A DNA stretch of 13,959 bases from Escherichia coli (GTDB lineage Bacteria > Pseudomonadota > Gammaproteobacteria > Enterobacterales > Enterobacteriaceae): NCBI RefSeq assembly GCF_003334315.1, contig NZ_QOWR01000079.1; one strand, written 5' to 3'. The position numbers and the translations under genes are program-made. Below the pieces are notes generated by a model that saw nothing but the letters and a program-made list of their open reading frames with translations, was not told the DNA's origin and made no database searches. Shown here in pieces: positions 12,900-13,959 of the stretch (the stretch's first letter is position 1; each line of letters begins with the position of its first letter).

Positions 12900-13205
<306 letters not shown>

Positions 13206-13278
13206 TCAGGCGGCGATTTTAGCATGATCCGCAGATGCTAACGTAATTGTCAGTCAGGGAGTGGCTGGTACATATATG

Positions 13279-13303
13279 GCAAAAGCCCGGAAAATCCGGG
13301 CTT
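13279..13303 (-). terminator. Intrinsic terminator downstream of the yifN-like gene (minus strand)
   Basis: Hairpin aagcccgg-aaaat-ccgggctt. Read on the minus strand, the stem is followed by TTTT (plus-strand aaaa at 13281-13284). Located about 80 nt downstream of the yifN-like stop. Confidence 0.5.
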
Positions 13304-13379
13304 CGCAGGTCCCTCAAGGGGAGAAAACTTAGGGCCTCTATGGGCTACAAAGTCATTATCGGGGATGGTTATTTTATTG

Positions 13380-13828
13380 TCAATTTATGAGCGATATGGC
13401 ATTGATTGACTTGATGACCGCCCTCTGTATGTCTGCAACCAACTCATGTGGCAAACATTGATTAAGATACCCTCTGTAAGTCCTTGCTCTGTTTAATCTG
13501 TTTCGACTGACTTGTTGTACCAGGTCGGCTTTGGCCCAACGAATCTGCTGATCAAAGAATTGCAGGTCATTGATAACATTACTGGCTATTTCAACATGCA
13601 TTCCACGTTTTAACTTGTCTGGTCGCGAGTGGTTGATAATGGAACGACGATGCATGCGTTGCCATTAATTTTTCCGTTGAGCACGACAACTAACCTGTTT
13701 TTTATCATTTCAGGAGGAATGCGGCCATCGTAATACGTCGTGCTGAACGGTCCATTTTGGCTAACAGGATAGTTACCAAAGTTGCATTCCAGTATTTCAC
13801 CAACCTTAGGGCTGAAATTAATCGCCAC
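13380..13828 (-). pseudogene. yifN: PemK/MazF-like toxin gene disrupted by a frameshift (yifN-like)
   Basis: Two overlapping minus-strand ORFs in different frames (13610-13909 and 13380-13655) together show a MazF/PemK-like order of motifs: GEILECNFG...RLVVVLNGK...ACIVVPLSTT, then after the frame change KLKRGMHVEIA...IRWAKADLVQQVS...ADIQRAVIKSINAI. The likely start is GTG at 13826-13828, preceded by an AAGGAGAGG Shine-Dalgarno (plus-strand cctctcctt at 13835-13843). The span 13380-13828 is 449 nt, not a multiple of 3, consistent with a 1-nt indel near 13610-13630. Confidence 0.7.
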
Positions 13829-13959
13829 GAGTAAACCTCTCCTTAGTAAACTCTGAAAAAGTAATAACACAACGTTACGACCTGGATTGGCCCCTATATT
13901 TCCATACACTTTTTATCACTTAACCCATTACTGGTTCGCCGCCGCAGATATTCCCGTGG

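What the first reader, a model, noticed from the sequence alone, without database searches (positions are those of the whole stretch)
13380..13909. Orphan PemK/MazF-like toxin gene inactivated by a single frameshift
The only accessory-type element in the window. Two overlapping minus-strand ORFs jointly give a MazF/PemK-like toxin of about 149 aa if one nucleotide is restored near 13610-13630. The frame switch falls between the conserved VVPLSTT strand and the KLKRGMHVEI segment. A strong Shine-Dalgarno and GTG start at 13828 and a downstream hairpin terminator suggest it was recently an expressed gene. No antitoxin ORF is visible between it and the window end. This fits toxin decay after antitoxin loss, or an orphan toxin. 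I recall the E. coli K-12 yifN locus is likewise annotated as a PemK-family pseudogene, so this is probably known rather than new.
Basis: partly seen in the sequence, partly recalled or inferred. Interest (0 to 1): 0.4.

Follow-up and report, generated by a model that had tools for sequence, protein, structure and literature searches.

The report
Dead yifN toxin gene, live RNA partner
This is the already-annotated, frameshifted E. coli yifN gene (a MazF-like RNA-cutting toxin); its whole family lacks a protein antidote but is always next to one small RNA gene, still intact here, which may be the real antidote.

Summary
Window 13380-13828 (minus strand) is the yifN pseudogene. It is 100% identical to the E. 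coli K-12 allele and lacks one T between 13620 and 13619. RefSeq already marks it as a frameshifted PemK/MazF toxin. The repaired 149-aa protein matches Pfam PemK_toxin (E 6e-11), folds like MazF, and keeps the MazF catalytic Glu/Arg/Thr(Ser) positions.

The deletion is a real allele, found in about 1223 of 4016 E. coli genomes with the locus. Other alleles are intact and under purifying selection.

Two points need correction. The ORF extension 13829-13909 is an artefact, because 13883-13959 is the end of an IS2-family element. "Antitoxin loss" is not supported: no homolog in 43 loci from many genera has a conserved neighbouring protein gene.

Instead, every YifN-family gene is linked to a conserved small RNA gene of about 79 nt. 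Here it lies at 13348-13270, with its promoter at 13383-13355. It has two mini-hairpins and a terminator, matches no Rfam family, and was detected by northern blot in K-12 as ecr3777(d+).

My best reading is a MazF-family toxin paired with an RNA partner, probably an antitoxin (about 45%). The toxin is dead and the RNA is intact.

The parts
13380..13828 (-). yifN pseudogene, a PemK/MazF-family toxin of the K-12-type frameshift allele. The GTG start is at 13828 and the TGA stop at 13382-13380.
   Evidence: 100% identical to K-12 MG1655 over window 13200-13882. RefSeq marks the CDS as 'frameshifted'. The repaired protein matches Pfam PF02452 with E 6e-11. The AF2 model matches MazF structures.
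13619..13620 (-). Site of the 1-nt deletion. A T is missing between these two bases, and codon His70 of the intact protein is disrupted.
   Evidence: Alignment with the intact allele AW1.7. The same deleted 89-mer is present in 1223 genomes.
13610..13828 (-). Truncated reading frame actually encoded from the real start. It gives 72 aa ending ...PLSTTRDQTS*. It keeps Glu40, Arg45 and Ser65 but lacks the C-terminal half of the fold.
   Evidence: Translation. Family alignment. Ribosome initiation at the yifN start was reported in 10.1101/520783.
13836..13844 (-). Shine-Dalgarno sequence AAGGAGAGG, 7 nt upstream of the GTG.
   Evidence: Read directly from the sequence.
13355..13383 (-). Sigma-70 promoter of the small RNA. 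The -35 TTGACA (13383-13378) overlaps the yifN stop codon. A 17-nt spacer precedes the -10 GATAAT (13360-13355).
   Evidence: 11 of 12 consensus matches, the best site in the region. In nearly all of 40 related loci a -35-like hexamer lies 16-18 nt from a -10-like box that usually ends 6-7 nt before the RNA; 26 of 40 score at least 9/12.
13270..13348 (-). Conserved small RNA gene of 79 nt, published as ecr3777(d+). It is the putative partner or antitoxin of YifN.
   Evidence: Covariance model hit of 86.9 bits, E 8e-18. Reported as a 79-nt RNA in the ppiC-yifO spacer of MG1655 and probed by northern blot; the printed probe matches 13313-13342 exactly. No Rfam family reaches threshold. The sequence is unchanged (>=99% identity over the 79 nt) in 3996 of the 4056 matching records, from 4016 genomes.
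13334..13345 (-). Mini-hairpin 1 of the RNA (GCC-CAUAGA-GGC).
   Evidence: The stem covaries: GGC/GCC and CCC/GGG occur in other loci, and CGG/CCG in a Pasteurellaceae plasmid.
13311..13320 (-). Mini-hairpin 2 of the RNA (CCC-UUGA-GGG), a degenerate repeat of hairpin 1.
   Evidence: Alignment A4 and pair counts. Some Roseateles/Rubrivivax loci appear to carry an extra copy of this unit.
13279..13306 (-). Intrinsic terminator hairpin shared by the small RNA and the yifN transcript.
   Evidence: 8 of 11 stem pairs show compensatory changes across 40 distinct sequences. The E. coli RNA folds at -27.8 kcal/mol, z -2.8.
13883..13959 (-). Terminal 77 nt of an IS2-family (IS3 family) insertion sequence. 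It sits 54 nt upstream of the yifN start and replaces the native yifN-rep spacer.
   Evidence: Identity with K-12 stops at 13882. The junction is the same as the annotated IS2 in strain ST540, but identity there is only about 86%. It is 96% identical to an IS3-family remnant on an E. coli plasmid.

Best explanation
SHOWN. Window 13380-13828 is the yifN pseudogene. It is the allele carried by E. coli K-12 and about 30% of the E. coli genomes that have the locus, and a single-T deletion after codon 69 truncates the protein to 72 aa.

Intact YifN (149 aa) belongs to the PemK/MazF family. It has the MazF fold and conserves the positions equivalent to MazF Glu24, Arg29 and Thr52 (Glu40, Arg45, Ser65). 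It is under purifying selection. It is part of a roughly 0.8-kb islet between ppiC and rep that is absent from about a quarter of E. coli genomes.

The YifN family is patchily distributed and mobile, occurring on chromosomal islets and conjugative plasmids. It never has a conserved protein-coding neighbour. It is always linked to a small RNA gene of about 80 nt that has its own strong promoter, two mini-hairpins and a terminator. That RNA is intact here at 13348-13270 and is expressed in K-12 according to a published northern blot.

INFERRED. YifN is an endoribonuclease toxin and the RNA is its dedicated partner.
- Most likely (about 45%), the RNA is an antitoxin that binds the YifN dimer through its two hairpins, in a type III-like manner.
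- Less likely (about 20%), the RNA acts by base-pairing with the yifN mRNA.

In this lineage the toxin was knocked out and the harmless RNA gene stayed. An IS2-family element later landed 54 nt upstream of the dead gene.
For: Pseudogene identity and frameshift.

Intact alleles: seven sampled genomes carry a 149-aa gene. dN/dS is 0.02-0.2, with dS up to 0.19 within E. coli and 0.05 against Superficieibacter.

Family, fold and catalytic residues: Pfam PF02452 E 6e-11. AF2 pLDDT 78, and the top 50 Foldseek PDB hits are all MazF with target TM up to 0.80. Invariant E40, R45 and S65 align to MazF E24, R29 and T52.

No protein partner: neighbours differ by genus. All-against-all clustering of flanking ORFs from 43 loci found no family shared beyond three loci; the groups were within-genus synteny, apart from an ssb gene seen in three loci of two genera.

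RNA linkage:
- Conserved module seen by eye in 8 genera.
- Covariance model hits next to the gene in about 40 gamma- and beta-proteobacterial loci, plus an E. coli plasmid paralog and pCAR1.
- The linkage survives rearrangement: convergent in Shewanella, two divergent upstream copies in Herbaspirillum, and one copy on the opposite strand upstream in Massilia.
- Analogous two-hairpin RNA with flipped stems on a Pasteurellaceae plasmid.
- Structure covariation and promoter conservation.
- In E. coli the RNA is in 4016 genomes, the same number as yifN, and is unchanged in 3996 of the 4056 matching records.
- It is absent together with yifN from the empty site.

Expression: PMC4681348, Table S5, Fig. 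7 and the probe sequence.
Against: No experiment shows that YifN is toxic or that the RNA neutralises it.

The hhalign match to E. coli MazF that maps the catalytic residues is weak (E 0.012).

The RNA differs from known type III antitoxins. It has no long tandem repeat array, it usually lies downstream rather than upstream of the toxin gene, and there is no evidence of processing.

The 5' hairpin stems are only 3 bp long with modest covariation, and alignment A4 was fitted to the model.

Neither NCBIfam nor PADLOC has a model that matches YifN.

Complementarity of the RNA to yifN codons 6-15 is significant in two or three loci (L021 and L029 p~0.003, L045 p~0.04). A base-pairing mechanism is therefore not excluded.

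The literature check covered only open-access full text.
Confidence: 0.8

Rival explanations
1. First reader's model. This is a classical type II toxin whose MazE/PemI-like protein antitoxin was lost, after which the toxin decayed. Alternatively, the antitoxin lies beyond the window end.
For: RefSeq names the product 'type II toxin-antitoxin system PemK/MazF family toxin'. The window ends 131 nt upstream of the start, so upstream context is not visible in it.
Against: In genomes without the IS, the gene is followed upstream by only 216 bp and then the divergent rep gene, with no ORF annotated there. Intact, selected alleles have no antitoxin either. No conserved flanking ORF was found in 43 homologous loci.
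Confidence: 0.04
2. The small RNA is the antitoxin but works as a trans-acting antisense RNA (type I-like, as in RalR/RalA). It would pair with the 5' coding region of the yifN mRNA (codons 6-15) to block translation or trigger decay, rather than binding the protein.
For: In Superficieibacter (L021) and Photorhabdus akhurstii (L029), RNA nt ~16-43 form a ~22-bp duplex with mRNA +16..+47 (p~0.003 each against shuffles). Roseateles L045 gives p~0.04. The RNA has a CU-rich stretch that resembles an anti-Shine-Dalgarno sequence.
Against: In 14 of 17 loci, including E. coli (p~0.29), the predicted duplex is no better than with shuffled RNAs. Whole-mRNA and 5'-UTR scans give z-scores of about -1.7 to +1.5 and inconsistent sites. 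The most conserved RNA features are two hairpins with conserved loops, which suits protein recognition better.
Confidence: 0.2
3. The RNA is not an antitoxin. YifN could be a non-toxic or domesticated RNase whose substrate or cofactor is this RNA (an enzyme-substrate pair). Or the RNA could be an independent regulator or 3'-UTR element that simply travels with the gene.
For: Toxicity has never been shown. The RNA remains expressed in K-12 although the protein is dead. In E. coli it lies upstream of ppiC and could act as its leader.
Against: Linkage holds across alpha-, beta- and gamma-proteobacterial contexts with unrelated neighbours and in three gene orders. This argues against a ppiC leader or a simple 3'-UTR. 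The MazF catalytic residues are invariant. Repeated inactivation of the protein gene with the RNA retained fits a toxin: the K-12 allele, and a truncated Rahnella woolbedingensis copy (L058) that still has the RNA.
Confidence: 0.2
4. The frameshift is a sequencing or assembly error and the gene is really intact.
For: Single-base indels are a common error type.
Against: The identical deleted sequence occurs in 1223 independent complete genomes, including many K-12 assemblies. It is not in a homopolymer run.
Confidence: 0.01

Closest known systems
E. coli K-12 yifN pseudogene (older names yifN/yifO; RefSeq 'type II toxin-antitoxin system PemK/MazF family toxin, frameshifted')
   Same: 100% nucleotide identity over 683 nt, with the same 1-nt deletion. 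It has the same position between ppiC and rep.
   Different: The window's strain is not K-12 MG1655. Its ilvG is intact at 548 aa. An IS2-family element replaces the native sequence from 54 nt upstream of the start.
MazF / ChpBK / PemK(Kid) type II endoribonuclease toxins (Pfam PF02452)
   Same: Profile match, the same fold, and a conserved Glu/Arg/Thr(Ser) catalytic triad.
   Different: YifN is 149 aa rather than about 110. It has an insertion of about 20 residues in the first loop (residues ~17-38, low pLDDT). It has no MazE/PemI-type gene in an operon and no matching NCBIfam model.
Type III toxin-antitoxin systems (ToxIN, CptIN, TenpIN)
   Same: A protein endoribonuclease with a Kid/MazF-like fold (for ToxN this rests on my own knowledge) is genetically coupled to a small non-coding RNA with repeated units. 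No protein antitoxin is present.
   Different: Known type III toxins belong to the ToxN/AbiQ-type families, not PF02452. Their RNAs are arrays of 34-45-nt direct repeats upstream of the toxin gene, separated from it by a terminator, and are processed by the toxin. Here there is one roughly 80-nt RNA with two 10-12-nt mini-hairpins and its own promoter, usually downstream. No Rfam match was found.
Type I-like systems with a separately transcribed sRNA antitoxin (RalR/RalA, TisB/IstR-1, SymE/SymR)
   Same: A strongly promoted small RNA gene lies beside a toxin gene.
   Different: Those systems rely on clear base-pairing with the toxin mRNA. Here complementarity is not significant in most loci.
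sRNA ecr3777(d+) of Romero et al. 2014 (PMC4681348), also seen by Conway et al. 2014
   Same: The same RNA: 79 nt in the ppiC-yifO spacer, on the same strand, with a northern probe identical to window 13313-13342.
   Different: It was published only as a 'previously undetected' sRNA of unknown function. I found no link to YifN or to other genera in the searched literature.
pemK RNA motif (a candidate cis-regulatory RNA upstream of pemK genes in Firmicutes; recalled from memory)
   Same: A conserved RNA structure associated with PemK-family genes.
   Different: That motif lies in the 5' UTR and occurs in Firmicutes. The Rfam scan of this region found nothing above threshold.

Membership tests
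PemK/MazF toxin family (Pfam PF02452) | Significant match of the repaired protein to the family profile | tested here: met
   PemK_toxin i-Evalue 6e-11, 43 bits, residues 38-141 against model positions 15-108 of 109. All full-length homologs carry PF02452.
PemK/MazF toxin family (Pfam PF02452) | MazF/Kid fold (small beta-barrel plus C-terminal helix) | tested here: met
   AF2 model with pLDDT 78 and pTM 0.72. The top 50 Foldseek PDB hits are all MazF proteins, with probability 1.00 and TM to target up to 0.80.
PemK/MazF toxin family (Pfam PF02452) | Catalytic residues equivalent to E. coli MazF Arg29 and Thr52 (plus Glu24) | tested here: met
   E40, R45, P63 and S65 are invariant in 64 family members. 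They align to MazF E24, R29, P50 and T52 (this alignment is weak, E 0.012).
PemK/MazF toxin family (Pfam PF02452) | Intact open reading frame in this window | tested here: not met
   A 1-nt deletion at 13619/13620 truncates the product to 72 aa. The window copy is therefore a pseudogene of the family.
PemK/MazF toxin family (Pfam PF02452) | Sequence-specific endoribonuclease activity and growth inhibition | not testable with these tools
   No experiment on YifN was found in the literature.
Type II toxin-antitoxin system | Adjacent co-transcribed gene for a protein antitoxin | tested here: not met
   No ORF is annotated between yifN and rep or ppiC in 9 E. coli genomes. No flanking ORF family is shared across genera in 43 loci.
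Type III toxin-antitoxin system | Non-coding RNA gene genetically coupled to an endoribonuclease toxin gene | tested here: met
   Covariance model hits lie adjacent to the gene in about 40 loci. E. coli genome counts are equal at 4016 and 4016.
Type III toxin-antitoxin system | Toxin of a ToxN/AbiQ-type family, with the RNA as a tandem array of 34-45-nt repeats upstream of the toxin behind a terminator | tested here: not met
   The toxin is PF02452. The RNA is a single unit with two short hairpins and its own promoter, usually downstream. No Rfam type III antitoxin match was found.
Type III toxin-antitoxin system | RNA binds and inhibits the toxin protein and is processed by it | not testable with these tools
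   Needs RIP-seq, EMSA, co-expression or a structure.
Type I toxin-antitoxin system | Antitoxin RNA complementary to the toxin mRNA | tested here: inconclusive
   Significant in L021 and L029 (p~0.003) and marginal in L045, but not in 14 of 17 loci including E. coli. Whole-mRNA scans were not significant.
IS3 family, IS2 group insertion sequence (window 13883-13959) | Terminal sequence homologous to an annotated IS2-type element end | tested here: met
   It aligns to the end of the annotated 'IS3-like element IS2 family' in ST540 at the same junction, with about 86% identity. It is 96% identical to an IS3-family remnant. Only 77 nt are visible, so the element was not identified to name.

The most novel reading that the evidence does not exclude
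YifN plus its small RNA would define a new kind of toxin-antitoxin (or defence/addiction) module. In it, a genuine MazF/PemK-family endoribonuclease is held in check by a dedicated, separately promoted two-hairpin small RNA that binds the toxin dimer, and not by a MazE-like protein. This would be a type III-like system outside the ToxN-type families. It is widespread on plasmids and chromosomal islets of proteobacteria and is present in about three quarters of E. coli genomes.
Probability: 0.4. Interest if true: 0.75.

Novelty: new variant of a known kind. Interest (0 to 1): 0.45.

Why it matters
The pseudogene itself is ordinary and already annotated, so on its own it deserves a low score.

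What matters is the context it exposed. 'Orphan' MazF-like toxins are usually assumed to have lost their antitoxin or to be neutralised in trans. Here a whole MazF subfamily, intact in about half of all E. coli genomes including O157:H7 and present on conjugative plasmids such as pCAR1, has no protein antitoxin. It is strictly coupled to an experimentally detected small RNA of unknown function.

If the RNA is the antitoxin, several things follow:
- RNA-based neutralisation would extend to the best-studied toxin family.
- An orphan E. coli sRNA would gain a function.
- It would explain how an apparently unguarded toxin gene can stay under purifying selection.
- Current genome annotation as 'type II' would need correcting.

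The idea is directly testable with simple genetics in E. coli.

Tried and rejected
- NCBIfam and PADLOC scans of intact YifN gave no family. PHROGs matched only an uncharacterised family, phrog_15698.
- A PDB sequence search gave only chance-level hits, E of about 1. The fold search was needed instead.
- Rfam at gathering and at permissive thresholds gave nothing for the RNA except a sub-threshold terminator-driven match to rnk_pseudo (20 bits against 55).
- The antisense hypothesis was tested by duplex energies against shuffles in three designs. It was not significant overall, so I did not adopt it as the main mechanism.
- RNAalifold and single-sequence folding suggested a long 5' stem (GGCCCU with AGGGaCC). 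A C-to-A change in Pseudomonas disrupts this stem without compensation, so I replaced it with the two-mini-hairpin model.
- An exact-pattern scan of viral contigs for the RNA core gave two chance matches, one clearly inside an apparent ORF, with no YifN gene on either contig. A tblastn of phage genomes found only two distant Vibrio satellite-like hits. There is therefore no evidence that the module is phage-borne.
- A ppiC-leader role for the RNA was rejected, because the RNA follows yifN and not ppiC in other genera.
- A fused antitoxin domain was rejected, because the Pfam match and the model span the whole protein.
- Several shared-queue calls failed and were repeated.

Full report
**1. The observation**

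The stretch 13200-13882 is 100% identical to E. coli K-12 MG1655. RefSeq annotates the corresponding CDS (window 13380-13828) as a frameshifted 'type II toxin-antitoxin system PemK/MazF family toxin' lying between ppiC and rep.

An alignment with an intact allele (strain AW1.7) shows one missing T in CGCGACCA[T]GACAAG, between window 13620 and 13619. This falls directly after ...VVPLSTTRD. Restoring the base gives a 149-aa protein. As it stands, the gene stops after 72 aa.

The deletion is not an error. The identical deleted 89-mer occurs in 1223 of the 4016 complete E. coli genomes that have the locus.

Identity with K-12 ends at 13882. Bases 13883-13959 are the end of an IS2-family element. 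It sits at the same junction as an annotated IS2 in strain ST540, but is only about 86% identical to it. The GTG at 13828, with AAGGAGAGG 7 nt upstream, is the real start. A ribosome-profiling study reports initiation at the annotated yifN start.

**2. What the protein is**

- The repaired protein matches Pfam PemK_toxin (E 6e-11, residues 38-141).
- It matches no NCBIfam or PADLOC model.
- It matches one uncharacterised PHROG.
- It has no solved relative detectable by sequence.
- An AlphaFold2 model built on 64 homologs (pLDDT 78) finds only MazF structures among the top 50 PDB matches, with TM to target up to 0.80.
- Family-invariant residues E40, R45, P63 and S65 align with MazF E24, R29, P50 and T52, the catalytic residues according to established MazF literature. 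The pairwise profile alignment behind this is weak.
- The extra length comes mainly from an insertion at residues ~17-38 with low model confidence. It is not a fused domain.

**3. Population picture**

All seven sampled E. coli genomes with other alleles carry an intact 149-aa gene with no annotated neighbour other than ppiC and rep. dN/dS among intact alleles is 0.02-0.2, with dS up to 0.19, and 0.05 against Superficieibacter. The intact gene is therefore functional and the K-12-type allele is a lineage-specific loss.

About 1400 of 5426 genomes lack the gene. In those, ppiC and rep are 86 bp apart, so yifN sits on a discrete islet of about 0.8 kb.

Outside E. coli the family is rare and patchy. 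It was found in 58 loci among about 100,000 species representatives, in Superficieibacter, Photorhabdus, Xenorhabdus, Serratia, Pantoea, Rahnella, Pseudomonas, Shewanella, Roseateles, Herbaspirillum and others. It also occurs on 118 plasmids, including pCAR1 and many E. coli plasmids.

**4. No protein antitoxin**

Neighbouring genes differ from genus to genus. I extracted all ORFs of at least 35 aa within about 700 bp of the gene in 43 loci and clustered them. No family is shared beyond three loci. The groups were within-genus synteny, apart from an ssb gene seen in three loci of two genera. The 'antitoxin loss' reading is therefore not supported.

**5. The conserved small RNA**

The sequence immediately downstream of the stop codon is conserved across genera, although everything beyond it differs. 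In the window the module consists of:
- a near-consensus sigma-70 promoter: TTGACA at 13383-13378 overlapping the stop codon, a 17-nt spacer, and GATAAT at 13360-13355 (11 of 12 matches);
- a 79-nt RNA at 13348-13270, GUAGCCCAUAGAGGCCCUAAGUUUUCUCCCCUUGAGGGACCUGCGAAGCCCGGAUUUUCCGGGCUUUUGCC...;

A covariance model built from 18 sequences finds this RNA next to the yifN homolog in about 40 gamma- and beta-proteobacterial loci. It also finds it beside the 55%-identical E. coli plasmid paralog and on pCAR1.

The linkage survives rearrangement:
- In Shewanella the RNA gene is convergent with yifN.
- In a Herbaspirillum there are two copies upstream on the other strand, and in a Massilia one copy.
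- A Pasteurellaceae plasmid homolog (38% identity) is followed by an analogous RNA. Its two hairpins read CGG-CUUAGA-CCG and CGG-CAUAGA-CCG, so the stems are flipped relative to GCC-CAUAGA-GGC while the loops are kept.
- Distant alphaproteobacterial homologs are followed by a different but likewise conserved structured element.

Pair counts support two mini-hairpins plus a terminator. 98% of cells are paired, 12 of 17 pairs show double changes, and slid controls collapse. The caveat is that the alignment was fitted to the model. The promoter is positionally conserved in nearly all of 40 loci.

In E. coli the RNA occurs in 4016 genomes, the same number as yifN. It is sequence-invariant in 3996 of the 4056 matching records despite synonymous divergence of up to 0.19 in the adjacent gene. 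RefSeq annotates nothing there and no Rfam family matches.

The RNA has been seen experimentally. Romero et al. 2014 list 'ecr3777(d+)' as a 79-nt RNA in the ppiC-yifO spacer of MG1655 on the same strand. They show a northern blot of the sRNA 'downstream of yifN', and their printed probe matches window 13313-13342 exactly. In the text held here the probe labels for ecr3777 and ecr2775 appear swapped. I found no paper that connects this RNA with YifN.

**6. Mechanism**

What is shown: a MazF-fold, catalytically equipped protein family is strictly co-inherited with a strongly promoted small RNA gene and with no protein partner.

What is inferred: the RNA is the antitoxin. I favour direct RNA-protein neutralisation (about 45%) for these reasons:
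- The conserved features are two similar hairpins with conserved loops, which suits a dimeric toxin.
- Some loci appear to carry a third unit.
- Complementarity to the yifN mRNA is not better than with shuffled RNA in most loci.

A base-pairing mechanism keeps about 20%, because two loci show a ~22-bp duplex with codons 6-15. A non-antitoxin role (substrate, cofactor or passenger) keeps about 20%.

The state of the window fits the usual order of toxin-antitoxin decay: the toxin is inactivated and the antidote retained. A Photorhabdus locus (L061) shows a deletion that removes the 3' half of yifN and the 5' half of the RNA together.

**7. Verdict**

The finding as written is correct in observation and already known as the yifN pseudogene. 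Its evolutionary interpretation is wrong in one respect, because there was never a protein antitoxin, and its upper coordinate is inflated by IS sequence.

The added value is the yifN-sRNA module. To my knowledge this is an undescribed variant of toxin-antitoxin organisation, and it is easy to test.

Noticed in passing
window 13883-13959: End of an IS2-family element whose junction is base-for-base the same as an annotated IS2 in E. coli ST540. The 77 visible bases are only about 86% identical to that IS2, and the best E. coli match is 96% (a plasmid IS3-family remnant). Two different IS2-group elements at one site suggests an insertion hot spot. It also suggests the source may lie outside the RefSeq E. 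coli set (for example Shigella).
   Followed up: partly
window 3926-5572 (+): ilvG is intact: 548 aa with a full-length match to the acetolactate synthase 2 catalytic subunit model. The yifN allele is nevertheless the K-12 type. The window is therefore not from K-12 MG1655, whose ilvG is frameshifted (this last point is from my own knowledge).
   Followed up: partly
window 69-399 (+): The 3' end of an rRNA operon: 5S rRNA (69-184), tRNA-Asp (239-315) and tRNA-Trp (324-399). These are followed by hdfR (494-1333, minus strand), yifE (1452-1790) and yifB/comM (1815-3365, minus strand).
   Followed up: yes
window 3617-3906 (+): The ilv leader region matches Rfam RF02744 'Rev39_5p_UTR' (157 bits, gathering score 88). 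That family is described from soft-rot Enterobacteriaceae.
   Followed up: no
L061:2501-2679 (Photorhabdus sp. CRCIA-P01): A deletion joins yifN codon ~79 directly to the 3' half of the small RNA. The toxin's C-terminal half and the RNA's 5' half were lost in one event.
   Followed up: partly
L056:1474-1719 and 1959-3145 (Herbaspirillum sp. Sphag64); L052:1628-1714 (Massilia): In L056 two tandem copies of the small RNA lie on the opposite strand upstream of a helix-turn-helix-like ORF, which precedes the yifN homolog. No RNA copy lies downstream. This is a different architecture for the same pair. In Massilia (L052) a single RNA copy lies upstream on the opposite strand; the intervening ORFs there were not examined.
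   Followed up: partly
L060, L064, L065, L068, L078: about 40-160 nt after the yifN-like stop: Distant homologs (27-34% identity; Alphaproteobacteria and a Planctomycete) are followed by a different structured element ending in a strong terminator. One example is GCGCCUCAAGUCCACC...GGUGGCG, shared by Komagataeibacter and Pelagibacterium. The covariance model does not detect it. L060 also has an XRE/HigA-like ORF just upstream.
   Followed up: no
L028, L033, L034; L010-L014; L081 (pCAR1): In Pseudomonas and Xenorhabdus the module sits among runs of small co-directional unknown genes. An ssb gene and an N6-methylase-like gene are nearby. This resembles the leading region of a conjugative element.
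   Followed up: no
PMC4681348, supplementary Table S9: The northern probe that matches the yifN-downstream RNA is printed on the row labelled ecr2775(u+). The probe on the ecr3777(d+) row does not occur in the window. The labels seem swapped, either in the table or in its text extraction.
   Followed up: partly
L082:414-499 versus L001:2983-3845: In genomes without the islet, the roughly 80 bp upstream of rep is not homologous to the K-12 sequence. The indel therefore also replaces the rep promoter-proximal region.
   Followed up: no
H78 (NZ_OY754443.1) and H89 (NZ_CP157104.1), ppiC-rep interval: Other E. coli genomes carry IS1 or IS481-family insertions within the same 1.5-kb interval. This hints at repeated IS hits on this islet.
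   Followed up: no
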